Notes: generated by a model from the sequence alone, not told the origin. DNA of 64,000 nucleotides from Candidatus Omnitrophota bacterium (GCA_028713415.1 JAQTOI010000001.1:18651-82650); one strand, 5' to 3'. Counted from the first letter of the stretch, positions 26,741 through 41,950 are shown. Numbers and translations: made by a program.

Positions 26741-26748
26741 ATCAGCAA

Positions 26749-28479
26749 ATGAAAATAGCACTGGTAGAAAGAGAAGACAGTTTCAACGCGGATGGTTTCG
26801 ATAAAATTATCCCTTTCTGCAGACATAACTACACAAATCAGGATAATTTGATTGAATTGTCTGAAATTTTTAAGATTTCTGACGATATCCATTCTGGTTT
26901 ACAGGGCTGGATGGATCAAAACAAAACGGAAGTAAATTTCGTCTATTTAGGAGCCGATATCTTACAGGCTTACGGCGCAAACATTTTTGAATATCTTTTC
27001 AATTTTTATCCAAAGGTGTACGCTCTTAAAAAAGTACTAAAGAAAGAATCCCCCGCGCAATTATGGATATCAAGCCCCGAAGCTGAACCCAGCTTAGAAA
27101 ACCCTTACCTTAATCAATTTATAGCTGATTTTCTTCCCGATAGCGTTGCGCTCAAGTATTTTGAATATCATAAGAAACCTGCTTCAGGAGCCCGTAAGCC
27201 GAAAAATCATACCTTGCGATCTATCAGGTTTATGTTAGATCTGATACGCAAACTCTCAAACGCAATCAGCCAGAACAAAAAAAACGATATTTTGATATGC
27301 TCTGACATGAGCAGGGTTAAAACTTTGTTAAAGCATCTTAAGCGTTCGGGCGTAATTTTCATACGAGAAGATTTTCCCGAAAGGCTTATCTTTCCTCTTT
27401 GTCTTGAGTCCATTAACCTTAAATTATTTTCAGATTTTAAAATATCAGGGTTTCAAGAAAAAGAAATTTCCGCAAAACGTATTGCTTTTATAGAGAAACT
27501 ATCACAAACAACAAGTAAATGCATTGTAGGAGGGTTAGACCTTACGCCATATGTTAAGAAATATCTTACCACGCTTTGGCAAAGGGAGCTGCTGCGTACG
27601 TTAGAGAGAGTTTGTCAAATGCATTCTCTGTTTAAGATTTTTCAAATAAAATCTTTACTGGTTGATGAGGACATAACAGTTCAAAAAAACTTGTTGGTCC
27701 AAGTTTCTAAGAACTATCACTGCAAATCTTATGTTAGCTGTCACGGCGACCCGTTTTACAAAATAGGAACAGTGCCCTTAACTGCCGACTATATATTGGC
27801 ATGGGGCGCTTATCAGAAAAATTTATTTATTAAATGGGGCCTAAGCGAAAACAAAATTCTTATTACCGGCAGCCTAAAGTATGACCAATATAAAAATATG
27901 CCCGCTCAAGAGGCAAAGAGGAGAATATGCAAAGATTTAAAATTGATATATTCAAAACAGGTGCTGCTGATTATCCCTTACCCCCTTAACTATAAAAGTA
28001 TAGTTTGGGAAAATTATTTTTGGCTTGAAAATAAGCGGATAGCAAGCGTTGCGAGCGCTTTTAAAGACCTGCAGATCGTCATAAAAGTTCATCCTTGTGA
28101 TATAAATGTATCTGAATGGTGTGCTCTGGCAGAAAGCCTGGGTATAAAACAAACAAATGTTTTAAAGAATTATGACCCATTGCTGTTGGCCAAGGGCGTT
28201 GATTTGTTGGCGGTGAGCCTATCTACGTTTGCGATCGATGGTATGGCTTATAAAAAACCAGTGATTTTGACAGATGGGTATAGTATGGAAAAGTATCAAA
28301 CATTAAATATATTCTATGACGGTACCACCGGGGAAAAACTTAAGAATTCCATCAGCGGCATTTTGAATGGCTCATATAAGAACCATATTGTTAATTGGCA
28401 GGCGGCAGCGGATTATATGCTTAATGGTATGGGAGATAGAATTTCTCAGACAATAATGGAGATATTAGAGCAACGATAG
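26749..28479 (+). CDS. GT-B-like TagF/KpsS-family protein, candidate nonulosonic-acid (pseudaminyl) or polyol-phosphate transferase
   Basis: 576 aa. C-terminal region has TagF-like blocks (VLLIIPYP...IVIKVHP...DPLLLAKGVDLLAVSLSTFAIDGMAYKKPVILTD), resembling the KxHP and D..L...D.LITDYSS motifs. Sits directly after pseI. Confidence 0.35.
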   Translation: MKIALVEREDSFNADGFDKIIPFCRHNYTNQDNLIELSEIFKISDDIHSGLQGWMDQNKTEVNFVYLGADILQAYGANIFEYLFNFYPKVYALKKVLKKESPAQLWISSPEAEPSLENPYLNQFIADFLPDSVALKYFEYHKKPASGARKPKNHTLRSIRFMLDLIRKLSNAISQNKKNDILICSDMSRVKTLLKHLKRSGVIFIREDFPERLIFPLCLESINLKLFSDFKISGFQEKEISAKRIAFIEKLSQTTSKCIVGGLDLTPYVKKYLTTLWQRELLRTLERVCQMHSLFKIFQIKSLLVDEDITVQKNLLVQVSKNYHCKSYVSCHGDPFYKIGTVPLTADYILAWGAYQKNLFIKWGLSENKILITGSLKYDQYKNMPAQEAKRRICKDLKLIYSKQVLLIIPYPLNYKSIVWENYFWLENKRIASVASAFKDLQIVIKVHPCDINVSEWCALAESLGIKQTNVLKNYDPLLLAKGVDLLAVSLSTFAIDGMAYKKPVILTDGYSMEKYQTLNIFYDGTTGEKLKNSISGILNGSYKNHIVNWQAAADYMLNGMGDRISQTIMEILEQR

Positions 28480-28577: not shown

Positions 28578-30062
28578 GTGATTTCTATGGATTATCTAAG
28601 TAAAGAAAAAATAGTAAAAGATACCACGAAGTATTCTCTCGCTACGATTGCCTCGCAGGCCATAGGGGTAATTACGAGCGTATTGTTAAGAAAATTGCTC
28701 GATCCCTCCCTGATGGGAATTTGGACTGGCCTTATGATTGTTCTAAATTACGGCCTTTATGCGGATTTTGGACTATTTTCGGCGGCTACAGTAAAAATTC
28801 CTTATTATAAAGGGAAAAAAGAAAAGCATAAAATCGAAAAAATAATGAATCTATCGTTCACCGTTAGCATTGTCGCGGTAATTTTATTAGCGGCTATGCT
28901 CATTATTGTTTCATTTTTTCTCGGAAAGACTTTTTCCCTACCCGTTATTACCGGGATAAGAATAGTTTCTTTTATTATGATTGCGACCATCCTGTATAAT
29001 TTCAATATCGTTATGTTGCGTGCGAACAAACAATTCACAATGTTAAGTAAAGTTGAAATTTTTAATTCTGCCGTTACCCTTGTTACAGTAATTTTGCTTG
29101 TCACCTTTTTTAAATTGTATGGATTATATTACGGGACTTTGCTGGCAGTGATAGCGAGTTTTTTATATAGTAAATCAATATCACATTACGATTTAAAATT
29201 ATATTTTGATATAAAGGAACTATCCCAACTCATAAAAGTCGGCTTACCTCTTGCGGCATATGGATTCTCATTCACCATATTGATCAGCTTGGACAAAATA
29301 GTAATTGCAAAAGCAATTGGAGCCAAGGATCTCGGATTTTATTCCATAGCGGTATTAGCATTTACTTACGCCCTGACATTTTCTAAACTGTTTGGTATTG
29401 TCACTTTACCGAGCATACAGGAAAGCTATGGAGAGACCGGTTCTATCAAACATATAATGCGTTATGTTAAAAAGCCTACCTTAATATTAGCGTATCTTTT
29501 ACCTTTACTTTTGGCTTTTGCGTATTTTATGATTCCTTTTTTAGTGCATTATTTTCTACCTAAGTATAGAGAAGGTATTACCAGTATGAAGATTATTTTA
29601 GGGGGATGTTTTTTTATCTCCCTGACATATTTAGCGCAGAATTTTTTAACCGCGTTGGATAAACAGATCCAAATGATACCTTTTGCATGTATTGCTGCCG
29701 CAGCAGGGTTGGTACTCGATTACATTTTTATAAAAATGAATATGGGCATAACAGGAGTTGCCCTGGGGACTTCAATATCATTTTTTATTTTCTTTTTTAT
29801 TATCATGGTCCACACACTGAAGCATTGCGATACTTCTATTGAAATTTCAGGATTTTTTGTGAATATTATTCTTATTTTTATATATTCATTCGGCTTGCTG
29901 TTTTTGGTTGAAAAGTATGTTCTAATAGACCGGTTTTTTTTAAAAACATTAGTTCATATGGTCTTGTTTTATCTCTGTTATCTGCCTGCTGTATTATTCA
30001 TTATCAGAGATAAGCCGACGAAAGAATTTTTGTTTCGTTTAAAAGCAAGCTTGGCATGTTAA
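28578..30062 (+). CDS. Wzx-type polysaccharide flippase (MOP/oligosaccharide flippase family)
   Basis: 494 aa, about 12-14 TM. Polysacc_synt-like N-terminal TM1-2 pattern. GTG at 28578 or ATG at 28587. Confidence 0.65.
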   Translation: MISMDYLSKEKIVKDTTKYSLATIASQAIGVITSVLLRKLLDPSLMGIWTGLMIVLNYGLYADFGLFSAATVKIPYYKGKKEKHKIEKIMNLSFTVSIVAVILLAAMLIIVSFFLGKTFSLPVITGIRIVSFIMIATILYNFNIVMLRANKQFTMLSKVEIFNSAVTLVTVILLVTFFKLYGLYYGTLLAVIASFLYSKSISHYDLKLYFDIKELSQLIKVGLPLAAYGFSFTILISLDKIVIAKAIGAKDLGFYSIAVLAFTYALTFSKLFGIVTLPSIQESYGETGSIKHIMRYVKKPTLILAYLLPLLLAFAYFMIPFLVHYFLPKYREGITSMKIILGGCFFISLTYLAQNFLTALDKQIQMIPFACIAAAAGLVLDYIFIKMNMGITGVALGTSISFFIFFFIIMVHTLKHCDTSIEISGFFVNIILIFIYSFGLLFLVEKYVLIDRFFLKTLVHMVLFYLCYLPAVLFIIRDKPTKEFLFRLKASLAC

Positions 30063-30126
30063 GATATAGCAAAAAAGCGCGTTGCCGTGCGTTTTTGAGG
30101 CAATAAGATAAACAGGTATTGATGAT

Positions 30127-30783
30127 ATGGGTATTTATACTTTAGAGAAAGAAAAAGTATATTATAGTTCTGATAGGAGAGAGATCGCCGCCATATTTAC
30201 GAATAGCGTCTCAAGCGTTCTGGACGTCGGCTGCGGTCAGGGTTTCTTAGGAAAAGTGCTTAAAGCCAAGGGTATAAAAAAAGTTACGGGAATAGAGGTT
30301 AATTGCGAAGCGGCAGAGATTGCCAAAAGAAACATCGATGAGGTGATTGTCGCTGACATTGAAAACACTGTTTTTAAATTCCCGGCTGGTTCCTTTGACG
30401 CCATTATCTTTGCTGATGTTCTTGAACATTTAATAAATCCATGGCAGGTTCTTGAGAAATTTAAAATATTCCTTAAGGAAGACGGTTTTTTTCTAATAAG
30501 CATCCCTAATATAAGATATTATAGGGTATTGCTTAATCTAATCTTAAAGGGAAAATTTCAATATGAGGACCAGGGCATACTTGATATAACGCACCTTCGT
30601 TTTTTTACCTTTAAAATGCTTAAAAAATACATGAAAGATATTGATTTCGAAATTATAAGAGTTAAGCGAAATTTTTCAGGATATATCAGCTGGTTATTTA
30701 ATATGGTTTTATTCAATGCACTTGCAGATTTTTTCACTCGGCAGTATATCGTTTTAGCAAAGCACAAAAAACATGACAGATAA
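30127..30783 (+). CDS. Class I SAM-dependent methyltransferase
   Basis: 218 aa. Motif I VLDVGCGQGFLGKVL. Post-I acidic residue and FADVLEHL. Confidence 0.7.
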   Translation: MGIYTLEKEKVYYSSDRREIAAIFTNSVSSVLDVGCGQGFLGKVLKAKGIKKVTGIEVNCEAAEIAKRNIDEVIVADIENTVFKFPAGSFDAIIFADVLEHLINPWQVLEKFKIFLKEDGFFLISIPNIRYYRVLLNLILKGKFQYEDQGILDITHLRFFTFKMLKKYMKDIDFEIIRVKRNFSGYISWLFNMVLFNALADFFTRQYIVLAKHKKHDR

Positions 30784-31567
30784 CTATCAAAATATTACTT
30801 CAGAAACCAAAAAAGCCTGGGAACTAAACTGGAGTAATATAGAACAGCGGGAAATTACTGAAATATTTAATTACCCCAGGGTAAAAAAGCAAATTGAGAT
30901 TTATCTGACGTATTTGCCAAAAAATGGCCTGGTGCTGGAAGCCGGATGCGGCCTTGGCCAATGGGCGCGTTATCTTAGCGATAGAGGATATAAGATGATA
31001 GGAATAGATTACAATTACAAAACAATAGAAAAAGCTAAAAATTTTAATCAGGATTTACCGTTAGGGGTTGCGGATGTGAGCAAGCTGCCGTTTCTCGATA
31101 AGAGTATTACTGCTTACCTTTCTTTTGGCGTGATTGAGCATTTCATAGAGGGTCCAGATGCCTCTTTACAGGAGGCTTATAGAGTTCTTGAAGAAAAAGG
31201 CATTGCCATTATAACTGTCCCTCATAAAAGTATTTTTATTATTCTTAAAAGCCCTCTTGTTGCAATAAAAAGATCGGCTGTTCTGCGCAGAATATTTTTC
31301 AAAAAAAATAAAGCGTATTATTATCAGCGATATTTTACGAGAAAAGAATTAACGGATAAATTTAATTCGCTCGGTTTTAGAATCGTTTCCTATAAGCCTA
31401 TAGACCATATATTCTCGCTTGTAGAATTTTCGGGAATTTTCAGGGATAAAAAAACTTACGACGGGGAGAACGCATTGGCCGTAAAGATAGGAAATTTTTT
31501 AGAGAGAGCGTTTCCTTTATTGTGTGCGGGCAGTAACTTATTTGTATTGCAAAAGAATGATAATTAA
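30773..31567 (+). CDS. Class I SAM-dependent methyltransferase
   Basis: 264 aa. VLEAGCGLGQWARYL...GIDYNY...FGVIEHF. Confidence 0.7.
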   Translation: MTDNYQNITSETKKAWELNWSNIEQREITEIFNYPRVKKQIEIYLTYLPKNGLVLEAGCGLGQWARYLSDRGYKMIGIDYNYKTIEKAKNFNQDLPLGVADVSKLPFLDKSITAYLSFGVIEHFIEGPDASLQEAYRVLEEKGIAIITVPHKSIFIILKSPLVAIKRSAVLRRIFFKKNKAYYYQRYFTRKELTDKFNSLGFRIVSYKPIDHIFSLVEFSGIFRDKKTYDGENALAVKIGNFLERAFPLLCAGSNLFVLQKNDN

Positions 31568-31582
31568 AAAGTGGGGTGAAAA

Positions 31583-32524
31583 ATGAAGCTTATAATTCAA
31601 ATTCCCTGTTATAACGAAGAAGAAACACTTCCTTTAGTATTGCGGGATTTACCAAAAAAGATTGATGGTGTAGATAAAATTGAAATACTCGTTATTAATG
31701 ATGGTAGCACGGATAAAACCGTAGAAGTTGCTCGTTCTTTAGGTGTGCACCATATTTTTATCCTTCCAAAACAAAGAGGCCTTGCGTATGTATTTAAGAC
31801 AGGATTGGAAAAGGCGCTTGAGCTTGGCGCTGACATAATTGTTAATACTGATGGAGATAACCAGTACAAGGGTGAATGTATAAAAGATCTGATTTACCCC
31901 ATAATTAAGCAAAATGCCCAAATAGTTATTGGCTGTAGGAACATATCTGAAATTAAACATTTTTCCTTTATCAAGAAATGCCTGCAGTATTTAGGAAGCC
32001 ATATCATAAGGAAAATTTCTAATACCGATATACCCGATACTACAAGTGGCTTCCGCGCTTATTCGCGCGAAGCCGCAATGAGAATAAACATATTCTCAGA
32101 TTATACCTATACACTGGAAACGATAATCCAGGCCGGAAGGAATAACCTGCACATTGCATTTGTTAAAATAGCAACTAACCCAAAATTAAGGGAATCGCGG
32201 CTTATAAAAAGCACCTTTAGGTATCTGGTGCGTTCCGCAGCCACAGCGCTTAGAATATACTTAATGTACGAACCGCTTAGGACATTTTTTTTCATAGGCA
32301 TTTTTCCCATTGTCGGCGGAGGCATCTTTATCGTCCGCTTTTTGATAGATCATTTCACTCGGCCCAGCGGCGGGCATATCCAATCTTTAATAATTGCAGC
32401 TATAGCTATTATTATGGGATTTGTGACAATTATGATAGGCCTTTTGGGAGACATTATTTCGGCAAACCGCAAACTGAATGAAGAAATTTTATATAAGTTA
32501 AAAAAAGAAAATTTAAAAATGTAG
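31583..32524 (+). CDS. GT2 polyprenyl-phosphate glycosyltransferase with C-terminal TM anchor (GtrB/ArnC-like)
   Basis: 313 aa. KLIIQIPCYNEEETL...LVINDGSTDKT...NTDGDNQ (DxD). Two C-terminal TM helices, as in GtrB. Confidence 0.7.
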   Translation: MKLIIQIPCYNEEETLPLVLRDLPKKIDGVDKIEILVINDGSTDKTVEVARSLGVHHIFILPKQRGLAYVFKTGLEKALELGADIIVNTDGDNQYKGECIKDLIYPIIKQNAQIVIGCRNISEIKHFSFIKKCLQYLGSHIIRKISNTDIPDTTSGFRAYSREAAMRINIFSDYTYTLETIIQAGRNNLHIAFVKIATNPKLRESRLIKSTFRYLVRSAATALRIYLMYEPLRTFFFIGIFPIVGGGIFIVRFLIDHFTRPSGGHIQSLIIAAIAIIMGFVTIMIGLLGDIISANRKLNEEILYKLKKENLKM

Positions 32525-32539
32525 AAGAAACAAAGAATA

Positions 32540-32570
32540 GGCGTTTTCGGTTTTAAAACCACCGCCTTTT
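32540..32570 (+). terminator. Rho-independent terminator-like hairpin: GGCG-ttttc-GGTTTTAAAACC-ac-CGCC followed by TTTT
   Basis: Read directly, 16 nt after the GT2 stop. Perfect palindrome GGTTTT/AAAACC nested in GGCG/CGCC, then a T4 run. Confidence 0.5.
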
Positions 32571-32651
32571 GGGATAATGACAATTGTAGACCATTTGGCA
32601 TAGATTATAACGAGCAATATTTTTTAAGATGGACTAACCACGGGTTATTTT

Positions 32652-33749
32652 ATGATACATATTTTTATCGGCACAAAAGCCCAGTATATAAAAACAGCAC
32701 CTTTGATACGATTGCTGGATGAAAAGGGGATTGAATATAACCTTATCGATAGCGGTCAACATGCGGCTTTTTCAAAAGAAGTAAGGCCGCATCTTGCCAT
32801 AAGGAATCCCGATATATATTTAAGAAGAAATAATGATATTGATACTATATTGGATGCTATTTTATGGATGGGTAAAACTTTGGCTCAAATAATTTTTAAG
32901 CCGAAATTTATAAAAAAAAATATTTTTAAGGATAAAAAAGGCATATGCATTGTTCACGGCGATACGCCATCAACGCTGCTGGCAGTTTTGATGGCTAAAA
33001 GAGCAGGATTAAAAGTTGCCCATATAGAAGCAGGGTTAAGATCATATAACTATTTTGATCCATTCCCGGAAGAATTGGTACGTGTGATATCAATGAAATT
33101 GTCGGATTATTTGTTTATCCCCAGTGAGGAAGCAGCACATAATGTTGAAAAGATGAAATGCAAGGGAAAAAAAATTAAATTAGGGGTTAATACAAATATA
33201 GAATCCTTGCACTATGCGTTAGCACTGGCAAAGGGTGAGTGCAATCTGAAAAAGCCGTACGCTCTTTTGACATTTCACAGAGTTGAGACACTTACGAATA
33301 GTAAACGGATAAAATTTATAATCAGATTGATTAACCACATAACCACGCTTATGCCCGTGGTTTTTATAACGCATACATGTACTAAAAAAGCATTAATTAG
33401 ATTGCATATGCTCAACGATTTTACGCAGAACGAAAAAATTATAATTAAAGAATTAGTTTCGCATTGCGAATTTCTGCAATATTTGAAAAGCTGCGATTTT
33501 ATACTTACCGACGGAGGCAGCATTCAAGAGGAAGCTTACTATTTAAATAAGCCGTGCCTTATACTAAGGAAGCGAACAGAAAGGCCAGAAGGTTTGGATG
33601 AGAATGCAGTAGTTTCTAATTTTAACTTTGAAGAAAATATTTCTTTTGTTAAAAGGTATAGAGAGTTTAAGAGAAAAAGCGCTGTGGAAAATATTCACCC
33701 ATCTCAGATAATTCTTGAAACTCTAAAAGGATATGCTCAAGTAAATTAA
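32652..33749 (+). CDS. wecB: UDP-N-acetylglucosamine 2-epimerase (non-hydrolysing), WecB/MnaA family
   Basis: 365 aa. MIHIFIGTKAQYIKTAPLIRLL...VHGDTPSTLLAVLMAKRAGLKVAHIEAGLRS is the Epimerase_2 signature. Confidence 0.8.
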   Translation: MIHIFIGTKAQYIKTAPLIRLLDEKGIEYNLIDSGQHAAFSKEVRPHLAIRNPDIYLRRNNDIDTILDAILWMGKTLAQIIFKPKFIKKNIFKDKKGICIVHGDTPSTLLAVLMAKRAGLKVAHIEAGLRSYNYFDPFPEELVRVISMKLSDYLFIPSEEAAHNVEKMKCKGKKIKLGVNTNIESLHYALALAKGECNLKKPYALLTFHRVETLTNSKRIKFIIRLINHITTLMPVVFITHTCTKKALIRLHMLNDFTQNEKIIIKELVSHCEFLQYLKSCDFILTDGGSIQEEAYYLNKPCLILRKRTERPEGLDENAVVSNFNFEENISFVKRYREFKRKSAVENIHPSQIILETLKGYAQVN

Positions 33750-33752
33750 ATA

Positions 33753-34595
33753 ATGAAGATAGAATCGGGAATTCCAATTATCGCTGATTATAATAAATTG
33801 ATAAAATCAGATTTATTCAAAGACATGGAATTGTCTTCGGATAAATTTATTCGGCAACATAGTGCTTATATGAAAAGATACAGATGGCATTGGGTAGCCG
33901 ATCCATTGCACCAATGGGGTAGACAATGGGAGTATCCTTTTGTATATAGTCGCCTCGAGGATTGTCTACGCAATAAAGCAGAAAAAAATGCAACGATATT
34001 GGATGCTGGTTCCGGAGCCACATTCTTTCCTTATTATTGCGCCGGAAAGTTCCCGGATTCCAGTATTTTTTGTTGTGATTATGATAAAACTCTGGAAAAA
34101 ACTTTTGCGAGAATAAATAGAACAGAGAAAAGCACGGTTGATTTTAAACAGGCGGATATACGTCATTTACCGTTTGAAAACAGTTATTTTGATGTTATTT
34201 ATTGCATCTCAGTTTTAGAGCACACATCTGATTATTCGACTGTTTTAAAAGAGTTTAAGCGTGTGCTAAAGCCCGGAGGGCTGTTTGTGATAACCTTTGA
34301 TGTTTCGCTCGATGGCTTTGCTGATATTCCGATAGATATTGCAGACAAATTGCTTTGCGAAATTGTAAAAAATTTTGAAGGCGCGCAGGTACCTGACGTT
34401 CAGAAGATTGCAACGTTGTTACAACGAAAGGAACAGAGGCTTACCACTGAATACATCTACTGTACCGATCGAAAACTTTTACCTTGGAAATATCCTGCTT
34501 TGTCTGCAATAAAAACCAGTTTACTTAAACGAAAATTTCCTACCAAACTATTCAAGAACATTACTTGCTACTGTTTATCGGTTATAAAAAAATAA
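33753..34595 (+). CDS. Class I SAM-dependent methyltransferase
   Basis: 280 aa. ILDAGSGATFFPYY...VLKPGGLFVITFD. Confidence 0.65.
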   Translation: MKIESGIPIIADYNKLIKSDLFKDMELSSDKFIRQHSAYMKRYRWHWVADPLHQWGRQWEYPFVYSRLEDCLRNKAEKNATILDAGSGATFFPYYCAGKFPDSSIFCCDYDKTLEKTFARINRTEKSTVDFKQADIRHLPFENSYFDVIYCISVLEHTSDYSTVLKEFKRVLKPGGLFVITFDVSLDGFADIPIDIADKLLCEIVKNFEGAQVPDVQKIATLLQRKEQRLTTEYIYCTDRKLLPWKYPALSAIKTSLLKRKFPTKLFKNITCYCLSVIKK

Positions 34596-34598
34596 TAT

Positions 34599-35543
34599 AT
34601 GAAGGTTGAGATATTCATACTTAATTATAACGGTCGAGAGTTGCTAAGCGAATGCTTGCCGTCCATCAGGGATGCCTCTTGCAGAAGCAAGTATAAACCA
34701 AGGGTAATAGTTGTGGATAATCAGAGCAATGATGGAAGTTATGAATTTGTAAGTGATAATTTTGCGGACATTGACTTTAAAAAAATGAAGCAGAACAGGG
34801 TCCTGTGCTCCTTTAATGATGTCCTTGCGGAATCCGATGCCGATATTGCATTTCTTTTAAATAATGATATTACTGTAAAACAGGAATTCATAGACCCTAT
34901 TATTGATATATTTGAAAAAGATCCAAAGACTTTTATGGTGGCACCAAAATTTTACAAGCGTGACGAAAAGGAATTAGAATGTATATGGTTTGTACCTCAT
35001 TTCCGGGCGGGTGTATTTAATGCTTTTTCCGCCCATAAGATTGGATTTTCCGATGATAATAATGTCTGCTACACGTTTCAATGCGGCATCGCCGCCTTTG
35101 ACAGGAAAAAATTTCTTCAATTATCGGGATACGATGATATATACTTGCCCGGCAGGCTGGAAGATTCGGATATCTGTTTCAGGGCATGGAAAAAAGGGTA
35201 TAAGTGTTATTACCAGCCTAAAAGCATAGGGTTTCATAAAGAAATGGCTAGTTTTAAGAAAAGATTCAGCATGAAGGAAATATTAACCTTAAGTCACCGC
35301 AACACGTATATTTTTATGTGGAAAAACATCACGGATCCGGCAATTCTTGCAAAACATTTTTTGCTGTTGATTCCAAGGTTTGGATATGCACTCTTGACCT
35401 TTAAAATAGAAATCATAGCCGGATTTTTCCAGGCTCTTGGAAAAATTAGATTAATATTGCAGAAAAGAAAAACAGCAAGAAAGAATTTTCTGCTCAAAGA
35501 TAGGGAAGTATTCGCCCTTTTTACCGGTGAAAGAAAATGGTAG
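34599..35543 (+). CDS. GT2 family glycosyltransferase (rhamnosyltransferase/WbbL-like)
   Basis: 314 aa. VEIFILNYNGRELL...VVDNQSNDGS...LLNNDITV. Confidence 0.65.
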   Translation: MKVEIFILNYNGRELLSECLPSIRDASCRSKYKPRVIVVDNQSNDGSYEFVSDNFADIDFKKMKQNRVLCSFNDVLAESDADIAFLLNNDITVKQEFIDPIIDIFEKDPKTFMVAPKFYKRDEKELECIWFVPHFRAGVFNAFSAHKIGFSDDNNVCYTFQCGIAAFDRKKFLQLSGYDDIYLPGRLEDSDICFRAWKKGYKCYYQPKSIGFHKEMASFKKRFSMKEILTLSHRNTYIFMWKNITDPAILAKHFLLLIPRFGYALLTFKIEIIAGFFQALGKIRLILQKRKTARKNFLLKDREVFALFTGERKW

Positions 35544-36274
35544 AAAATATTTTTTTAAAATTAATAAAAGACCCGTTTGGTTTTATTAAAAGGGGATTGT
35601 ATAAAACCATAATCGCGCCTTTTAAATATGGCAAGGGTAATGATTACGATGCCAAGAGCTATTGGAATGATAGGTTTAGAAAATACGATCATGCCTTACG
35701 AGGAGTGGGCGACGAGGGTTTGTCTGAAGAAGAGAACAAAAAAGCATACGAAGAGGCGGCAGGAGTATTTAGGGGGCTGTGCTTACAGGAAAATATTGAT
35801 TTCAATAATATAAACGTCCTGGAAATAGGCTGTGGCACAGGTTTCTACACGCAGATACTTCATGGCTTGGGCGTACAACACTATACGGGAGTTGATATAA
35901 CGGATGCATTATTCTCCGGGCTCGCTAAAAAATTTTCAAAATATACCTTTATCATGAAAGATATTACCGCGGATACGATAGAAGGCAAATTCGGATTGGT
36001 CGTAATGATAGATGTAATTGAGCACATAGTTATTGAATCTAAATTTTCCGCTGCAATGGAAAATGTAAAAAAGTGTTTATCCGGCGACGGCATTTTTATA
36101 TTAGCGCCTATAATGCACGAGAGCAAACGGCATCTTTTTCATACGCGGTCATACTCATCGGATGACATAAAAAGGGAATTCCCTGGTTATGTTTTTAGCA
36201 AATTAACTCCGTTTCGCGGCAGTTACATAGTATCAATAAGGAAGCAGGGTGGGGATGTAGTGAACGAGAAATAA
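35537..36274 (+). CDS. Class I SAM-dependent methyltransferase
   Basis: 245 aa. VLEIGCGTGFYTQIL...VVMIDVIEHI. Confidence 0.65.
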   Translation: MVENIFLKLIKDPFGFIKRGLYKTIIAPFKYGKGNDYDAKSYWNDRFRKYDHALRGVGDEGLSEEENKKAYEEAAGVFRGLCLQENIDFNNINVLEIGCGTGFYTQILHGLGVQHYTGVDITDALFSGLAKKFSKYTFIMKDITADTIEGKFGLVVMIDVIEHIVIESKFSAAMENVKKCLSGDGIFILAPIMHESKRHLFHTRSYSSDDIKREFPGYVFSKLTPFRGSYIVSIRKQGGDVVNEK

Positions 36275-36384
36275 GAAATTGCGGTAGCAAAGAAAGGCAA
36301 CAACAGTAAGCGCTATTTTTATTCGGAAGTAATGGTATAATCGAAATTGCTTCATAAATAATATGTACAAAAAAATATTTCAAT

Positions 36385-38022
36385 ATGAATTCATCTAAAA
36401 TAACCGTTAAGCCGGCAGAAGAACGGAAACTATGTATATTCTTGTTTTTTTTCGTATCTTCGATCTTTCTGCTATTTTTTAACGGTCATTACGGAGGCGA
36501 CGGCCTTGAGAGTTATTTGACTGCAGAAAGTATAGTACTCGATAAAGATTTGTCTATACACGATAGGCCATTTCAGGTAAGCGAGATGCGTTACGCCGTA
36601 AGAGGGCATAAGGCCGACGACGGAAAAATATATTCAAACCAGGGGTTAGCCATGCCATTAGCGCTTTCACCTTTTTATATGCTTGGCTATCTTATTTCAA
36701 ATCTATTCCATGGCATACCGCGGCCTTATATCTCACAGTTTTGTGTTTCGATGTCCAATCCTTTAATAATGGCATTCGCCAGTGTCATCTTATTTAAACT
36801 TTTGAGAGAACTCCAATTTAACCTGAAAGTGTCGCTTGGCACTGTTTTTTTATATTCTTTCTGCACAATGAATATTATATATGTCCGGTCAGGGTTCGCT
36901 GAGCCACTTGTGTGTTTGTTCCTATTGCTTTCAGTGTTGTACGTGCTGCGTTATGAAAAATATTCCCGATTGCGTAATATGTTATTAGCGTCAGTTTTTT
37001 TGTGTCTTACTATTTTTATAAAAAAGAATTCATTGATATTCTTACCGCCTTATGTGGCATACCTGATCTATCTCAATATAAAATACCGCCAACGTTTTAA
37101 TCACATCTTGTATGTCTTTAAATTTTACTCTGCATTTATAATACCGCTACTTTTTTCTGTGGGGCTTATTATGATGCAGAATATTCTGCTTTATGGGGGC
37201 ATATTTAATACAGAGTTTGGTTCAGCGGCCGATATTTTTACAGTAGCTACGTCAGGATACGGACCTATGCCTAAAACTTTTGACGCTGCCAAATACGGCA
37301 ATCAATTTATAAGAGCGACCTTTTATTTCTTAATAAGCAGCGGCAAAGGCTATTTGATTTATAATATTATTTTTCTGCCCGCGATTTTTGGAATACTGCC
37401 GGCTTTTTTTCGTAAATATAGAGCCATAATGATTTTTATAGCGGCTTTGGTATTGTGCGTTCTTATCTTCTATATTCAGCGTTTCATCAGAGGTTCGCTA
37501 TTTTCCTGGGGGCCGCGATATCTGTTTCCCACTTTACCTTTTATGGCTGTTTTCTTAGCGATTTTTATTGAAGAAAGTAAAACAGCCGCAAGAAGAGGCG
37601 CGCTGTATATTTTAGCGGCAATTGGTTTTTTAATACAATTACCCGCTTTGTTTATCAATTGCTCCGCATTTATTTTCTTTGTTAAAGAAAAACTGCAGCT
37701 TCAAGAATATTTAATGGATTTTTTGCCAGAACTTAGCCCTATACGAGGAACATGGTTTCTTTTTATTTCTTTTATAAAACGTAAATTATCCGGAGAATCC
37801 CTTCATTTTTCTTTCAATCCGGACATAAGAATGGTCGAGCCTAAACTAGAATCGCTCGCGGGGTATGACACACTAGATGTTTGGTGGGCCAATATTCTTA
37901 AAGTTGCCCCCCGCATGTGGCCTTTCGTTTTGATTCTTATCGCCGTGCTCTTAATTACAATAATAGTATGTTCTTATAAGATTAAATCAACTATTTCTAA
38001 GGTATCAACGGCAGAAGGATGA
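36385..38022 (+). CDS. Polytopic membrane protein, possible GT-C-like glycosyltransferase (uncharacterised)
   Basis: 545 aa, more than 12 predicted TM helices. Early loop NGHYGGDGLESYLTAES resembles the acidic first-loop motif of GT-C enzymes but is not canonical. Confidence 0.35.
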   Translation: MNSSKITVKPAEERKLCIFLFFFVSSIFLLFFNGHYGGDGLESYLTAESIVLDKDLSIHDRPFQVSEMRYAVRGHKADDGKIYSNQGLAMPLALSPFYMLGYLISNLFHGIPRPYISQFCVSMSNPLIMAFASVILFKLLRELQFNLKVSLGTVFLYSFCTMNIIYVRSGFAEPLVCLFLLLSVLYVLRYEKYSRLRNMLLASVFLCLTIFIKKNSLIFLPPYVAYLIYLNIKYRQRFNHILYVFKFYSAFIIPLLFSVGLIMMQNILLYGGIFNTEFGSAADIFTVATSGYGPMPKTFDAAKYGNQFIRATFYFLISSGKGYLIYNIIFLPAIFGILPAFFRKYRAIMIFIAALVLCVLIFYIQRFIRGSLFSWGPRYLFPTLPFMAVFLAIFIEESKTAARRGALYILAAIGFLIQLPALFINCSAFIFFVKEKLQLQEYLMDFLPELSPIRGTWFLFISFIKRKLSGESLHFSFNPDIRMVEPKLESLAGYDTLDVWWANILKVAPRMWPFVLILIAVLLITIIVCSYKIKSTISKVSTAEG

Positions 38023-38050: not shown

Positions 38051-39025
38051 ATGAAAAAAAGCTATTACAAAAATAAAAGAGTGCTTATAACCGGGGCTGA
38101 CGGTTTTATGGGTTCACATTTAACCGAAAGGCTGCTTTGTGAAGGAGCAAAAGTTTCCGTTTACCTGCGGGGGAACTCCGTATCCGGGACTATTCAATAC
38201 AGTTTAAAAAACATAAAACACCTTGAAGGTGACTTAGAAGATATCCTTACCGGGAATATCTCCGCTTTAGATTCAAAAGACTTAGTTATCAAGAATAAGC
38301 CGGAAATAGTTTTCCATTTGGCTGCGGATGCCTATGTGCCGAATTCTTTCGACCATCCGATTGAAGTAATGGAGACCAACGTTTTAGGCACGCTCAACAT
38401 GCTCCATGCCGTAAAAGAATGCAAAGCCATAAAACGGATTGTCTGCACCTCTTCCAGCGAAATATACGGTATGACCCTGGGCGGCTCTATCGACGAAGAA
38501 CACCCTTTATACCCTTCATCGCCCTATGCCGCAAGCAAGGTAGCGGCCGATAGGTACGCCTATTCCTATTGCAACACTTATCACTTGCCCATTGCCATAA
38601 TTCGCCCCTTTAATACTTACGGCCCGCGGCATACCTATGATGTGATACCAAAGTTTATAGAGCTGGCGCTGTCTGGAAAAACATTATGCGTGCATGGCAC
38701 TGGAAAGCAATCGCGCGATTTCACCTATGTCGATGATATGATTGAGGCTTTTATGCTGATGGGCAGCCATAAGGAAGCTTTAGGGCGGGCGATAAATTTT
38801 GGAACCGGCAAAGCAATTACCATTAATTACATCGCCAGCAAGATAAAAGAAATCTCCGCGAGCCCCTCGCCAATTGTGCATACCAAAGAGCGCAAAGCGC
38901 AGGTGCCAAAATTACTTTGTAATTATTCGCTGGCCAAGAAACTTTTCGGTTGGTCTCCTAAAATTTTTATAGATGAAGGTTTAAGGAGGAATATCAAATG
39001 GGCAAAAGAATTTCTGGCGTTTTAA
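38051..39025 (+). CDS. NAD-dependent epimerase/dehydratase (extended SDR; UDP-sugar 4-epimerase or 4,6-dehydratase-like)
   Basis: 324 aa. [19 protein letters not shown] (GxxGxxG). YAASK catalytic YxxxK. Confidence 0.75.
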
Positions 39026-39534
39026 AAAAAACCTACATAGATAAACGCGCTGTTGTGGCGAAAAGTGCCAGAATCGGAGAAGGCACAAAAGTTTGGGCTT
39101 TTGCGCAAGTCGGAGATAACGCGAAAATTGGCAAGAATTGCGTTATAGGTAACGGCGCTTACATTGATAGGAATGTAATTGTAGGTAACAACGTTAAAAT
39201 CCACAACAAAGCATTGCTTTATAACGGCCTTATTGTCGAAGACAATTGTTTTATCGGACCCGGAGCGTGTTTCGCTAACGATAAACGCCCGTGTTTTAAT
39301 AAAACCCGCAACTTAAAAGGAGTATCCTGGAGGCTTAAAAAAGGCTCATCTGTAGGGGCGAATGCTACAATATTGCCGGATGTTACTATCGGAGAAAATT
39401 CGATTGTCGGCGCAGGCTCGGTAGTGACCAAAGATATTCCTTCAAATGTTACGGCCTGCGGCAATCCCGCACGAATATTGCGCCGCGAAAACGCAAAAAA
39501 ATCCGCAAAACCGCAAAAATTACCAAAATTATAA
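38998..39534 (+). CDS. Hexapeptide-repeat (left-handed beta-helix) sugar N-acetyltransferase (WbbJ/PglD-like)
   Basis: 178 aa. Repeated [LIV]G..x..x hexapeptides ([28 protein letters not shown]...). The C-terminus is encoded by the CGCAAAA repeats. Confidence 0.7.
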
Positions 39535-39540
39535 GATAAA

Positions 39541-40662
39541 ATGCCGAAAACGTCAGTTAAGGAACAGTTTTCGCAAGCTGCCGGCTGGATAAAAAATTCG
39601 GGAATTCAATCTTCTGAAGGAGGATTTTACTCCTGGTTCGATAATGATAACAAATCCTACTCTTATCTGTATTCGGAAATAACCGGCTACGGCATCACCA
39701 CGCTTCTTTTCCTCTACGATATCGAAAAAGACGCTGTGTGTTTGGACAAAGCGCAAGCCGCGGCAGCCTGGTTAAAAAAAATTGCCATGCATCCCTGCTG
39801 TGGCATGCGCACGCGCTTTTACAGCAATGATACTTTAGCGGATAAAACATACTCGTTTGCGCAAGAAAATATTTTTTCCTTTGATACAGGCATGGTATTG
39901 TATGGAATAGCTAACCTTTATCGTGTCACAGCTGTTCCGGAGTATATAGCTATGGCAACCAAAATTGCAGATTTTCTTATCGGAGTTATGCAGCAGGACG
40001 ACGGTTCGCTTGCCCCGATATATAATCCTAAACGTAAAGAATTATCGCTGCCTTTAGAAAATAAATGGTCTAATCAGCCGGCCGGATTTCACGCTAAAGT
40101 AGCGCTTGGATTTGCTGATCTTTTTGATATAACAGCTGATAAAAAATACTACGATGCAGCTTTGCGCCTCTGCGAATATGCGATTAGCACTCAGGAAGCT
40201 AGTGGCCGATTTATCACTGACAAAAAGACAAACACCACGCATCTGCATCCGCATTGCTACAGCGCCGAAGGGCTTTGGTACGTAGGCAGCCGTTTCAATA
40301 TACCGGAATTTGTCTTGGCTGCTAGAAACGCAACTATATGGGCGCTGGAACACGTAAATTCAAGCGGTATCAATGAGCTTTATAGCCCCGAAAAAGGGTT
40401 CAATGCTTTTGTGAGAAGCGATATTCTGGCGCAGCTTTTACGTTTGAGCTTGATATTTTCTAAAAACAGCGGGCAAAAAGAGCTCCTTTCGGCCTTACTT
40501 AGCCATCAATTGCGCGATGCTTCCTCGCAGAGCGGCGGATTCCTGTTTAACAAAAATTGCGGGCACATTAATTCCTGGTGCAGCATGTTCGCGCTTCAAG
40601 CGCTATATTTACATGAAAACAAAAAAAGCACTTTTTTTGAGCAACCAAGGTTATTGATATAA
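39541..40662 (+). CDS. Hypothetical protein (soluble, possibly alpha/alpha-barrel-like), function unknown
   Basis: 373 aa. No motif I can name with confidence. Conserved-looking SEITGYGITTLLFLY and W..G.RF blocks. Embedded between an acetyltransferase and a WecB paralog. Confidence 0.3.
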   Translation: MPKTSVKEQFSQAAGWIKNSGIQSSEGGFYSWFDNDNKSYSYLYSEITGYGITTLLFLYDIEKDAVCLDKAQAAAAWLKKIAMHPCCGMRTRFYSNDTLADKTYSFAQENIFSFDTGMVLYGIANLYRVTAVPEYIAMATKIADFLIGVMQQDDGSLAPIYNPKRKELSLPLENKWSNQPAGFHAKVALGFADLFDITADKKYYDAALRLCEYAISTQEASGRFITDKKTNTTHLHPHCYSAEGLWYVGSRFNIPEFVLAARNATIWALEHVNSSGINELYSPEKGFNAFVRSDILAQLLRLSLIFSKNSGQKELLSALLSHQLRDASSQSGGFLFNKNCGHINSWCSMFALQALYLHENKKSTFFEQPRLLI

Positions 40663-40831
40663 GGTAAAGACCGCAGAAGCGCAAAAATCGTAATGCGGTC
40701 ATCGGTTGCGTAGCTAGAAACGCCAGGCGTCAAACGTCAATCGTATTTTTACGAAAGACGATAGCCGATGAACGATTCGAGCTACGCGATCCTTCAACAT
40801 TAGACGCGTCTTTGCGGCGTAAAAATTTGCT

Positions 40832-41950
40832 ATGAAAAACAAAAAACTAGCATTTATATTCGGGACAAGGCCGGAGATTATAAAATTAAGCCCCATAATC
40901 AGAGAATGCCAAAGAAAAAAGGTTTCCTTTTTCTGTATCCATACCGGCCAGCACTATTCTTATGCTTTAGATACGATATTTTTTAAGGAATTACGCTTAC
41001 CTAAGCCTGAATACAGGTTGCAGATAAAATCCAAAGCACCTTTTCGGCAAGGCGAGCATACCGGAACTATGCTTATCGAAATCGAAAAGATACTTCTGCG
41101 GGAAATGCCATATTGCGTAGTGGTGCAGGGCGATACAAATACAGTGCTTGCCGCCGCACTCACAGCAGAAAAAATATCGACCACTTCTCATTATACAGGT
41201 TTCTATATCAAAGTAGCCCATGTGGAAGCGGGACTGCGAAGTTTTGATAGAAGCATGCCTGAAGAGGTGAATCGTTTTATAGCGGACCATCTTTCCGATT
41301 TCCTTTTTGTCCCTACAAAAAATGAGCAGAAACTTTTATTGCGCGAAGGAGTCCCTTCTTCCTGGATACACGTGACAGGTAATACTATCGTTGATGCGCT
41401 ACAGCAGTCGCTGGCATTGGCGCGAAGAGTGAACGGGATATTAGGAAAATTAGCAATCTCAAAAAATGCGTATATGCTTTTGACCCTTCATAGGCAGGAA
41501 AATGTGGACTCAAAAATAGTTTTCAAAAATATTCTTAAAGGACTTGAGAGCGTTTATGAGAAATTTAGATTACCGGTTATTTTTCCAATGCATCCACGCA
41601 CACAAAAGAGGCTTAAAGTTTTTAATCTAAAGATACCATTCGGCATAAAAGTTATTGAGCCTGTGGGATTTCTTGATTTTTTATCCCTGGAAGCAGACTC
41701 AAGGCTTACTCTTACGGATTCAGGAGGGGTCCAGGAAGAATCCTGCATATTAAAGGTGCCTTGCGTTACCTTGCGCAATAATACCGAACGCCCCCAAACG
41801 GTTCTGGTCGACGCAAATGTGGTCGCGGGAACAAATCCGGAAAATATCTTAAAGGCCGCAATTAAAATGTACGGAACTTCTCGGCGATGGAGGAATCCTT
41901 TAGGCGATGGAACTGCGGCTAAACAAATATTAAATATCTTATTGAAATAA
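40832..41950 (+). CDS. wecB: UDP-N-acetylglucosamine 2-epimerase (non-hydrolysing), second paralog
   Basis: 372 aa. KLAFIFGTRPEIIKLSPII...VVVQGDTNTVLAAAL...HVEAGLRSFD. Confidence 0.8.
   Translation: MKNKKLAFIFGTRPEIIKLSPIIRECQRKKVSFFCIHTGQHYSYALDTIFFKELRLPKPEYRLQIKSKAPFRQGEHTGTMLIEIEKILLREMPYCVVVQGDTNTVLAAALTAEKISTTSHYTGFYIKVAHVEAGLRSFDRSMPEEVNRFIADHLSDFLFVPTKNEQKLLLREGVPSSWIHVTGNTIVDALQQSLALARRVNGILGKLAISKNAYMLLTLHRQENVDSKIVFKNILKGLESVYEKFRLPVIFPMHPRTQKRLKVFNLKIPFGIKVIEPVGFLDFLSLEADSRLTLTDSGGVQEESCILKVPCVTLRNNTERPQTVLVDANVVAGTNPENILKAAIKMYGTSRRWRNPLGDGTAAKQILNILLK

What the first reader, a model, noticed from the sequence alone, without database searches (positions are those of the whole stretch)
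30127..36274. Methyltransferase-dense segment: four class I SAM MTases alternating with GT2s and WecB
Four clear Rossmann-type methyltransferases lie within 6 kb (30127, 30773, 33753, 35537). Further copies are at 52436 and 20578, alongside the B12-rSAM enzyme. This number of methyltransferases in a glycan locus implies a heavily O- or N-methylated polysaccharide, or methylation used as a chain-terminating signal (as in some O-antigens where terminal methylation controls chain length). It is unusual at this density.
Basis: inference. Interest (0 to 1): 0.5.

Follow-up and report, generated by a model that had tools for sequence, protein, structure and literature searches.

The report
Methyltransferase-rich variable surface-glycan cassette
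Four different methyl-adding enzymes really are packed into 6 kb of a sugar-coat gene cluster in an uncultured Omnitrophota bacterium, but they look like ordinary, swappable decorating enzymes in a strain-variable surface-glycan cassette, not a new kind of system.

Summary
ORFs at 30127, 30773, 33753 and 35537 are intact, soluble class I SAM methyltransferases (MT-A to MT-D). They are interleaved with two GT2s and a WecB-like epimerase. Two more MTases lie at 20578 and 52436, and a B12-radical SAM gene at 19154. The four are not duplicates (22-32% identity, SAM core only). None reaches any quinone, BioC, MetW or NodS equivalog cutoff. The window is from a Candidatus Omnitrophica MAG. The segment lies in a low-GC variable block (26.7-38.0 kb) beside a conserved right flank (50-85% identity in relatives). 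The shared backbone is a flippase, GT2d, a membrane-anchored GT2 resembling polyprenyl-phosphate sugar synthases, and a GT-C enzyme. MTase content varies around it. MT-A follows or precedes the flippase and MT-B precedes the anchored GT2 in other Omnitrophota. MT-C, often with the WecB-like gene and an MT-D-like gene, recurs in glycan loci across many phyla. Relatives carry 1-3 MTases per roughly 6-8 kb, and none of 166 comparison loci reaches four. Glycan methylation is the best reading. Chain termination is not supported: no ABC transporter, no WbdD-like kinase. In Tannerella forsythia three MTases add only two methyl groups, so gene count need not equal methyl count. This is a new member of a known kind.

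The parts
26749..28479 (+). 576-aa protein with no Pfam family; left end of the low-GC variable block; candidate nonulosonic-acid transferase
   Evidence: No Pfam hit. Weak match to the BFO_1060 glycosyltransferase family. 23% identity to a 613-aa LIC12162/Glyphos_transf protein at the same position in L170. GC 0.37.
28578..30062 (+). Wzx/MOP-family flippase
   Evidence: Polysacc_synt_3 56 bits and Polysacc_synt 34 bits. 13 hydrophobic segments. Orthologues at 32-35% identity lie next to MT-A in L167 and L170.
30127..30783 (+). MT-A, class I SAM methyltransferase (Methyltransf_23/MetW-like fold), soluble
   Evidence: Pfam 75 bits. Closest solved relative is 3cc8, a putative MTase, E 1e-37. Closest homologues (44-71% identity) are mostly Omnitrophota. 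Adjacent to the flippase in L167 and L170 as well. No TM segment.
30773..31567 (+). MT-B, class I SAM methyltransferase, soluble; conserved partner of the anchored GT2
   Evidence: Methyltransf_11 68 bits. Homologues at 52-68% identity; those that carry a source name are from Omnitrophota. Lies directly upstream of the GT2_TM orthologue in the window and in L166, L168, L169 and L171, 5 of 5 cases.
31583..32524 (+). GT2 with two C-terminal TM helices; polyprenyl-phosphate sugar synthase-like (DPMS/ArnC/AglJ type)
   Evidence: Glycos_transf_2 81 bits. Best NCBIfam hits are AglJ, PgfS, Dol-P-hexose transferase, PpgS and ArnC, all below equivalog cutoffs. The only PDB hits are DPMS 5mlz and ArnC structures, the latter aligned along the full length. 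TM segments at 237-255 and 269-287. 60-66% identity in five Omnitrophota loci.
32652..33749 (+). Divergent WecB-like UDP-HexNAc 2-epimerase
   Evidence: Epimerase_2 199 bits. TIGR00236 190.5 bits against a cutoff of 210. Best PDB hit is 4neq, UDP-GlcNAc 2-epimerase, 2e-42. Residues invariant with the canonical WecB are retained (A2). The subfamily is widespread and usually lies next to a GT2.
33753..34595 (+). MT-C, member of a widespread ~280-aa class I MTase family with an invariant N-terminal W..HQW.R..EYP motif
   Evidence: Methyltransf_11 73.5 bits. 425 homologues at E<=1e-10; the listed ones are 41-58% identical over 83-100% of the query. Alignment A1. Found in bacteria, CPR and archaea. 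WecB-like orthologue present in 23/80 loci and an MT-D-like neighbour in 11/80. AF2 model pLDDT 88.8. Fold neighbours are generic.
34599..35543 (+). Soluble GT2 glycosyltransferase (GT2d)
   Evidence: Glycos_transf_2 46 bits. Orthologues at 37-43% identity in L166, L167, L169 and L170.
35537..36274 (+). MT-D, class I SAM methyltransferase, soluble
   Evidence: Methyltransf_11/12/25 about 41 bits. Pfam NodS 32 bits, covering the SAM-binding core only. NCBIfam NodS 26.8 bits against a cutoff of 300. Related ~270-aa MTases (27-31% identity) lie next to MT-C in 11/80 loci.
36385..38022 (+). GT-C-fold membrane glycosyltransferase (PMT_2-like); right end of the variable block
   Evidence: PMT_2 25.7 bits against a cutoff of 26.1. 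At least 9 hydrophobic segments. Orthologues at 34-43% identity in L166-L169 carry PMT_2 or PMT hits.
38051..41950 (+). Conserved right flank: SDR dehydratase/epimerase, hexapeptide acyltransferase, GH76/88-like protein, canonical WecB
   Evidence: Pfam. 85/72/50/74% identity to L170 and 75/62% to L169. GC 0.41-0.44 against 0.34-0.39 in the variable block.
19154..21531 (+). B12-binding radical SAM enzyme plus a 317-aa class I MTase inside the nonulosonic-acid module
   Evidence: Pfam.
52436..53203 (+). Sixth class I MTase (MT-F), in the second glycan assembly line
   Evidence: Methyltransf_11 63.5 bits.

Best explanation
The segment is the strain-variable core of a surface-glycan locus (LPS O-antigen-like, capsule-like or protein-glycan) in an Omnitrophota bacterium. 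The four methyltransferases are soluble cytoplasmic tailoring enzymes from four separate lineages, each recruited alongside a glycosyltransferase or sugar-nucleotide enzyme. The conserved backbone is a flippase, a soluble GT2, a membrane-anchored GT2 that most likely loads a sugar onto polyprenyl phosphate, and a GT-C enzyme that would transfer that lipid-linked sugar onto the glycan at the periplasmic face. This matches the known synthase + flippase + GT-C type of periplasmic glycosylation. The WecB-like epimerase would supply a 2-epimerised UDP-HexNAc (ManNAc-type). Because SAM is cytoplasmic, methylation must occur before flipping, on nucleotide-linked or polyprenyl-linked sugars. The result would be a glycan unit with one to four methylated positions, and swapping MTases between strains would diversify the surface. 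Shown here: gene identities at family level, solubility and topology, the conserved pairings, the variable-cassette structure, and the absence of ABC-transporter or WbdD features. Inferred: acceptor sugars, O- versus N-methylation, the stage of methylation, and the final acceptor molecule.
For: No MTase has a TM segment, the anchored GT2 has two C-terminal TMs, and the GT-C has at least 9. Pairwise identity among the MTases is only 22-32% in the SAM core, so they are not duplicates. MT-C homologues lie in glycan loci in Peribacteria, Planctomycetota and a MAG named Tissierellales by the protein source but titled Dehalococcoidia UBA5760 on its contig record, and across 80 species. MT-A pairs with the flippase and MT-B with GT2_TM in other Omnitrophota, the latter in 5 of 5 loci. 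The GT2_TM + GT-C backbone is conserved at 60-66% and 34-43% identity. The right flank is 50-85% identical, while the block between varies in content and is low in GC. Population-variable polysaccharide cassettes are reported for Omnitrophota (bioRxiv 10.64898/2026.06.07.730766). L170 encodes a GT2::MTase fusion, which points to direct GT-MTase coupling. Precedents: the T. forsythia cluster with wzx, pse genes, five GTs, three MTases and wecB/wecC (PMC6120980), and three-component periplasmic glycosylation (PMC11127046).
Against: No MTase matches a characterized sugar MTase above a curated threshold. The MT-C fold search returns only generic class I cores (TM about 0.5), with N-MTases and the sugar O-MTases RebM/AtmM ranked alike. 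The WecB-like subfamily usually occurs without MT-C: MT-C was within 3 kb in 0 of 35 well-flanked loci, and one short-flank locus (L141) had it adjacent. That link is therefore facultative. No dedicated small GtrA-type flippase was identified. GT-C membership of 36385 is marginal on its own Pfam score. No chemistry exists for any Omnitrophota glycan.
Confidence: 0.6

Rival explanations
1. Fewer methyl groups than genes, or non-sugar targets within the glycan. Two MTases may be needed for one methylation, as with MtfJ and MtfO in T. forsythia. One or more may methylate a carboxyl group (methyl ester, like archaeal AglP, from my own knowledge), an amino group, or a phospho-substituent such as phosphoethanolamine, instead of a sugar hydroxyl.
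For: In T. forsythia three MTases give two methyl groups (PMC6120980). MT-C's structural neighbours include phosphoethanolamine and sarcosine/dimethylglycine N-MTases. In L169 the MT-B homologue lies next to a CDP-alcohol phosphatidyltransferase and another MTase, and in L166/L168 next to inositol-phosphatase-like and SIS genes.
Against: Nothing assigns a specific non-sugar substrate. In the window the MTases are flanked by GTs and an epimerase, not by phospho-substituent genes.
Confidence: 0.25
2. Methylation acts as a chain-terminating, length-controlling cap, as with WbdD in E. coli O9a or the methyl caps of ABC-transporter-dependent O-antigens and S-layer glycans.
For: Terminal methyl caps exist in such systems (PMC3482155). 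MTase genes in a glycan locus are compatible with a cap in principle.
Against: No ABC transporter (Wzm/Wzt) is present among the window's ORFs of 150 aa or more. A Wzx flippase and two Wzy_C proteins are present instead. The MTases are single-domain with no kinase or coiled-coil region. WbdD structures are absent from the PDB sequence hits at E<=1e-3.
Confidence: 0.05
3. The MTases are unrelated small-molecule, quinone, RNA or protein methyltransferases that lie in the locus by coincidence.
For: The best-named NCBIfam hits are MetW, UbiG, UbiE, BioC and DVU_1556. Some source annotations call homologues UbiE or UbiG.
Against: All those scores are 2-10 fold below the curated equivalog cutoffs. 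The genes overlap or abut GT genes on one strand. Homologues of MT-A, MT-B and MT-C sit in glycan loci in every context examined, across phyla. The chance of four in seven genes is about 5e-6 under my assumed 2% MTase frequency.
Confidence: 0.03

Closest known systems
[quoted passage not shown]
   Same: Almost the same parts list in one co-directional cluster: a Pse-type nonulosonic-acid pathway, a candidate NulO transferase, a Wzx-like flippase, several GTs, several unrelated class I MTases, and WecB. Methylation there targets a ManNAc-derived residue and a galactose.
   Different: The phylum is different. The window has four MTases, not three, in the specific segment and six in 64 kb. No WecC is present here. 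The window adds a polyprenyl-phosphate GT2 plus a GT-C enzyme. Whether the product goes onto protein, lipid A-core or a capsule is unknown.
Three-component periplasmic glycosylation systems (GtrB-type polyprenyl-P-sugar synthase + flippase + GT-C; PMC11127046)
   Same: The membrane-anchored GT2 (31583) matches only DPMS and ArnC structures. A GT-C-fold protein (36385) lies 3.9 kb downstream. The two co-occur in four other Omnitrophota loci (L166-L169).
   Different: No small GtrA/SMR/MATE flippase was recognized; the only flippase candidate is the Wzx/MOP protein. The module is interleaved with four MTases and an epimerase, which is not a described feature of these systems. No activity has been tested.
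WbdD (E. coli O9a) kinase-methyltransferase chain terminator (PMC3482155)
   Same: A SAM-dependent methyltransferase acting in O-polysaccharide biosynthesis.
   Different: WbdD is a bifunctional kinase-methyltransferase that regulates O-antigen chain length in an ABC-transporter-dependent pathway (PMC3482155); that it is a large, coiled-coil-bearing protein is from my own knowledge. None of these features is present here.
Haloferax volcanii N-glycosylation (Agl) pathway: AglJ, AglP, AglR, AglS
   Same: It combines a Dol-P-sugar GT2 (AglJ is the best NCBIfam hit for 31583), a SAM-dependent MTase acting on a lipid-linked glycan (AglP), a Wzx-like flippase (AglR) and a GT-C-type transferase that uses a Dol-P-sugar (AglS).
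   Different: It is an archaeal system on dolichol that targets S-layer protein Asn residues. The AglJ score is 96 bits against a cutoff of 325, so 31583 is not an orthologue. That pathway has only one MTase.

Membership tests
Class I (Rossmann-fold) SAM-dependent methyltransferases | Methyltransf_11/23/25-type domain above the Pfam gathering score, with a glycine-rich SAM-binding motif I | tested here: met
   All four ORFs pass (41-75 bits against cutoffs of 21-27). Motif I is present in each. The MT-C model shows the Rossmann strand/helix pattern at pLDDT 88.8.
Ubiquinone/menaquinone methyltransferases (UbiE/MenG, UbiG) | Score at or above the NCBIfam equivalog/subfamily cutoffs (TIGR01934 158; TIGR01983 103) | tested here: not met
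   The best scores are UbiG 49.6 (MT-A) and MenG/UbiE 44.2 (MT-C), both far below cutoff. The genomic context is glycan synthesis, not quinone synthesis.
WbdD-type chain-length terminators | Bifunctional kinase + MTase with a coiled-coil extension, working with a Wzm/Wzt ABC transporter | tested here: not met
   The proteins are single-domain, 218-280 aa. No ABC transporter is found in the window. No WbdD chain appears among the PDB hits.
NodS N-methyltransferase | NCBIfam NF041650 equivalog score of at least 300, i.e. a full-length NodS match | tested here: not met
   MT-D scores 26.8 bits against 300. The Pfam NodS hit of 32 bits covers only the SAM core, positions 44-145 of 201. No NodS structure appears among the PDB hits.
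Polyprenyl-phosphate glycosyltransferases of GT2 (DPMS/GtrB/ArnC/AglJ type), tested for ORF 31583 | An N-terminal GT2 catalytic domain plus C-terminal TM helices, and closest similarity to known polyprenyl-P sugar synthases | tested here: met
   GT2 domain 81 bits. Two C-terminal TM segments. The only PDB hits are DPMS and ArnC. The top NCBIfam hits are all polyprenyl-P transferases, but each is below its equivalog cutoff, so the sugar specificity is unknown.
GT-C fold glycosyltransferases, tested for ORF 36385 | 7-13 TM helices with an extracytoplasmic catalytic loop, and PMT/PMT_2-type similarity | tested here: inconclusive
   At least 9 hydrophobic segments. PMT_2 scores 25.7 bits against a cutoff of 26.1. 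Orthologues at 34-43% identity carry unmarked PMT_2 hits. The structure was not modelled.
Non-hydrolysing UDP-GlcNAc 2-epimerase (WecB/MnaA), tested for ORF 32652 | TIGR00236 equivalog score of at least 210, and conserved catalytic residues | tested here: inconclusive
   Scores 190.5 bits against 210, just below cutoff. Pfam Epimerase_2 scores 199 bits. 39 columns are invariant with the canonical WecB, including the HGDT, H-x-E-x-GLRS, PEE, HR-x-E and QEE motifs. It forms a distinct subfamily with its own motifs.
Three-component periplasmic glycosylation system | A polyprenyl-P-sugar synthase, a dedicated flippase and a GT-C transferase encoded together | tested here: inconclusive
   A synthase-like GT2 and a GT-C-like protein are present and co-conserved. 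No GtrA/SMR/MATE-type flippase was found, only a Wzx/MOP protein.
T. forsythia-type O-glycan MTases (MtfJ, MtfO, MtfY) | Sequence orthology to MtfJ/O/Y and 4-O-methylation of ManNAc-uronamide or Gal | not testable with these tools
   The reference sequences could not be fetched. Only the locus-level resemblance was established.

The most novel reading that the evidence does not exclude
The tight, conserved pairings (MT-B directly upstream of the polyprenyl-phosphate GT2 in 5 of 5 Omnitrophota loci; MT-C beside the WecB-like epimerase and a GT2 across phyla) might mean that methylation happens on the polyprenyl-phosphate-linked monosaccharide donor itself. A pre-methylated sugar would then be flipped and attached by the GT-C enzyme outside the cytoplasm. 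This would be a four-component extension of the three-component periplasmic glycosylation scheme, letting cells add methylated side-branches where no SAM is available. The high cross-phylum conservation of MT-C (41-58% identity along the full length, invariant N-terminal motif) would fit a small, invariant substrate better than a variable glycan.
Probability: 0.2. Interest if true: 0.5.

Novelty: new member of a known kind. Interest (0 to 1): 0.3.

Why it matters
Nothing is known chemically about Omnitrophota cell surfaces, although these tiny, often host-associated bacteria are widespread. This locus predicts a methyl-decorated, nonulosonic-acid-containing glycan whose methylation pattern is swapped between strains, much like serotype variation. 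That could matter for phage or host recognition. On the practical side, it delineates three reusable gene pairings (flippase + MT-A, MT-B + polyprenyl-P GT2, WecB-like + MT-C with or without MT-D) and a widespread uncharacterized MTase family (MT-C) that would be good targets for biochemical assignment. It does not reveal a new type of system.

Tried and rejected
1. Promoter and terminator scan of 26-41 kb. Counts equal the shuffled expectation, so there is no usable operon boundary.

2. Rfam gathering scan of the whole window. No RNA family was found and no riboswitch lies near the SAM or B12 enzymes.

3. PDB sequence searches with all four MTases. They returned only structural-genomics or generic MTases, and MT-A's strong hit 3cc8 has no known function.

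4. AlphaFold model of MT-C plus Foldseek against the PDB. Only class I cores matched (TM about 0.5), with no call on substrate class.

5. The hypothesis that GT2_TM + WecB-like + MT-C form an obligatory conserved cassette. This was rejected in that form. Starting from MT-C, the WecB-like gene is nearby in 21-29% of loci. Starting from the WecB-like subfamily, MT-C is adjacent in 0 of 35 well-flanked loci, with one further case (L141). MT-C is therefore a facultative add-on.

6. Tandem duplication as the origin of the four MTases. Rejected, since they share 22-32% identity in the SAM core only.

7. Chain-terminator and quinone-MTase readings. Rejected, as detailed under rival explanations.

8. 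Not attempted: direct comparison with T. forsythia MtfJ/O/Y, WbdD or mycobacterial Rmt sequences, which the tools could not fetch.

Full report
**Observation.** All four exceed the Pfam gathering scores for generic class I SAM-MTase domains with near-complete domain coverage, and all carry motif I. Between them lie a GT2 (31583), an Epimerase_2/WecB-like gene (32652) and a second GT2 (34599). A Wzx/MOP flippase (28578) precedes the block and a multi-TM PMT_2-like protein (36385) follows it. The further MTases at 20578 and 52436 and the B12-binding radical SAM at 19154 are also real. Genes overlap by 7-11 nt or are separated by 3-127 nt, all on the + strand.

**Wider context.** Pfam annotation of all 53 large ORFs shows that about 55 kb of the window is glycan biosynthesis:
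- two phosphoglycosyl transferases (358, 48204);
- two Wzy_C proteins (1775, 50379);
- a Pse-type nonulosonic-acid pathway with extra tailoring enzymes (15365-26740);
- many GT2 and GT4 genes;
- six GT-C-fold proteins (10113, 13331, 36385, 44165, YfhO 5678, GT87 54243);
- a GT9.

Housekeeping genes (xseA, M48 peptidase, pnp, ftsK) follow. No ABC transporter is present. The window derives from a MAG that NCBI names Candidatus Omnitrophica bacterium. The same contigs occur in Logan run SRR22315509.

NCBIfam hits to MetW, UbiG, UbiE/MenG, BioC and DVU_1556 are fold-level only and lie 2-10 fold below the curated cutoffs. Hits to sugar-related models (NodS, NanM, MftM) are equally sub-threshold. 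PDB sequence searches give only structural-genomics or generic MTases. WbdD and NodS structures are absent at E<=1e-3. MT-C has weak local matches to RebM and AtmM, which are sugar 4-O-MTases. An AlphaFold model of MT-C (pLDDT 88.8) finds only generic class I cores at TM about 0.5, and N-MTases and O-MTases rank alike. Sequence and fold therefore neither refute a glycan role nor identify substrates.

**Relationship among the four.** Pairwise identity is 22-32% and confined to the ~100-residue SAM core. These are four separate lineages, not tandem duplicates. None has a hydrophobic segment, so all should be cytoplasmic.

**Evidence from related loci: MT-C.** MT-C belongs to a widespread full-length family of about 280 aa. 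The search found 425 homologues at E<=1e-10; the listed ones are 41-58% identical. Its N-terminal motif W..HQW.R..EYP is invariant (A1). The family occurs across bacterial phyla, CPR bacteria and archaea. In three contexts examined gene by gene it sits among GT2/GT4 genes, Wzx, Wzy and WecB/WecC genes. Across 80 species-representative loci:
- a WecB-like orthologue is present in 23 loci (within 3 kb in 12 of the 56 loci with at least 3 kb of flank);
- an MT-D-like MTase lies adjacent in 11 loci;
- a GT2_TM orthologue is present in 7 loci.

Some loci reproduce the window's gene set closely. L014 (Marinimicrobia) has GT2_TM, MT-C and WecB-like at 55, 44 and 42% identity. Burkholderiales loci have the order WecB-like, MT-D-like, GT2, MT-C, then a 218-aa MT-A-like gene.

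**The reverse test.** Starting from the WecB-like subfamily, 80 metagenome loci show it almost always beside a GT2. MT-C was within 3 kb in none of the 35 loci with adequate flanks. One locus excluded for short flanks (L141) has MT-C directly after the epimerase. MT-C is therefore a facultative tailoring add-on, not part of an obligatory cassette.

**Evidence from related loci: MT-A and MT-B.** Their close relatives (44-71% identity) are mostly from Omnitrophota. In six Omnitrophota loci:
- MT-B lies directly upstream of the GT2_TM orthologue (60-64% identity) in all four loci that have it. With the window that makes 5 of 5.
- MT-A lies next to the flippase in both loci that have it.
- GT2_TM and the GT-C protein (34-43% identity) co-occur in four of the six loci (L166-L169).
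- The right flank (SDR, acyltransferase, GH76/88-like, WecB) is 50-85% identical in L170 and L169.
- The gene content between the NulO-transferase-like gene and that flank differs from locus to locus.

The variable block coincides with a GC dip: 0.34-0.39 against 0.40-0.45, and this includes the soluble proteins. A recent preprint reports population-variable polysaccharide cassettes in Omnitrophota genomes. The segment is thus a mosaic, serotype-like variable cassette. It combines lineage-specific partners (MT-A, MT-B) with a promiscuous cross-phylum set (WecB-like, MT-C, MT-D-like).

**Density.** No comparison locus reaches four class I MTases in 6.15 kb.

| Comparison set | Loci | MTases in any 6.15-kb span |
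|---|---|---|
| Centred on MT-C homologues | 80 | one in 61 loci, two in 15, three in 4 |
| Centred on WecB-like homologues | 80 | none in 57 loci, one in 19, two in 4 |
| Omnitrophota relatives | 6 | 1-3 MTase domains in about 6-8 kb, plus up to three B12-radical SAM genes |

L170 even encodes a GT2::MTase fusion. The window is therefore the extreme of a continuum and not a qualitative outlier. The phmmer-based MTase detection and the short contigs make the 0/160 figure approximate.

**Mechanism.** The 31583 protein has a GT2 domain plus two C-terminal TM helices. Among solved structures it matches only dolichol-P-mannose synthase and ArnC, and its best NCBIfam neighbours are all polyprenyl-phosphate sugar transferases. 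Together with the co-conserved GT-C protein, this fits the established scheme of synthase, flippase and GT-C for periplasmic glycosylation (PMC11127046). A dedicated small flippase was not found, however. The WecB-like protein retains the residues that are invariant with the canonical WecB and probably supplies a 2-epimerised UDP-HexNAc. Because the MTases are soluble and SAM is cytoplasmic, methylation must precede flipping. It would act on nucleotide-linked or polyprenyl-linked intermediates. Which one is inference.

**Comparison with known systems.** The closest locus-level analogue is the T. forsythia O-glycosylation cluster, with wzx, pseBCFHGI, five GTs, three MTases and wecB/wecC. There MtfJ and MtfO are both required for one 4-O-methyl on a ManNAc-derived residue, and MtfY methylates a Gal (PMC6120980). 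That precedent supports glycan methylation. It also warns that gene number does not equal methyl number. The WbdD-type chain-termination model (PMC3482155) fails its defining features here.

**Verdict.** This is a real, non-random, MTase-rich segment, best explained as tailoring enzymes in a variable surface-glycan cassette of an Omnitrophota bacterium. It is a new member of a known kind and of modest interest. The most novel reading still open is methylation of the polyprenyl-phosphate sugar donor before GT-C transfer.

Noticed in passing
window 15365-26740: A Pse-type nonulosonic-acid pathway (PseB, PseC, CMP-transferase, PseG-like, GNAT and NeuB) with extra tailoring genes: B12-radical SAM, a 317-aa MTase, a class III aminotransferase, a formyltransferase C-domain protein, a PIG-L deacetylase and an aldo-keto reductase. 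This predicts an unusually modified nonulosonic acid.
   Followed up: partly
window 5678-7873, 10113-11828, 13331-15004, 36385-38022, 44165-45883, 54243-55469: Six GT-C-fold membrane glycosyltransferases (YfhO, four PMT/PMT_2-like proteins and a GT87) plus several short Dpm1-like GT2s within 64 kb. This implies several separate periplasmic glycosylation steps and is arguably more unusual than the MTase count.
   Followed up: partly
window 7936-10116 (with 10113-15004): A 726-aa fusion of an SDR dehydratase/epimerase with a DegT aminotransferase, followed by a GT-C, a GT2, a GNAT and a second GT-C. It resembles an Arn-like route that puts an amino sugar on a lipid carrier.
   Followed up: no
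window 26749-28479: A 576-aa protein with no Pfam family and only a weak BFO_1060 glycosyltransferase match. It occupies the same position, after NeuB and before the flippase/MT-A, as a 613-aa LIC12162/Glyphos_transf-like protein in L170 (23% identity). It is a candidate nonulosonic-acid transferase.
   Followed up: partly
window 26700-38050 versus flanks: A GC/GC3 dip (0.34-0.39 against 0.40-0.45) that coincides with the block whose gene content varies between Omnitrophota relatives. The right flank at 38051-41950 is 50-85% identical to L170 and L169.
   Followed up: yes
L166 15480-18532; L168 14706-17774; L169 13949-17098; L171 14057-16173: An RtcB RNA-ligase homologue recurs inside all four Omnitrophota glycan loci; a thymidylate-kinase-like gene accompanies it in L166, L168 and L171, and an LPG_synthase_TM protein in L166, L168 and L169. 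This is an odd and unexplained association. It is not present in the window.
   Followed up: no
L170 14845-16284: A single 479-aa protein fuses a GT2 domain to a class I methyltransferase domain, which suggests direct coupling of glycosyl transfer and methylation in this lineage.
   Followed up: no
window 358-1770 and 48204-49607; 1775-2965 and 50379-51689: Two Bac_transf phosphoglycosyl transferases and two Wzy_C-domain proteins, suggesting two independent glycan assembly lines, or one polymerase plus one ligase or O-oligosaccharyltransferase, in the same region.
   Followed up: no
window 23863-24570 and 24311-25240: The listed TTG ORF for the PIG-L protein overlaps the preceding formyltransferase-like gene by 260 nt. 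The PIG-L domain starts at residue 89, so the true start is probably further downstream.
   Followed up: no
L010, L016, L027 (archaeal MAGs) and L026, L071 (Peribacteria): The MT-C family, sometimes together with GT2_TM and WecB-like neighbours, occurs in Woesearchaeota, an Asgard-related MAG and CPR bacteria at 42-50% identity. This indicates inter-domain transfer of this glycan-tailoring gene set.
   Followed up: partly
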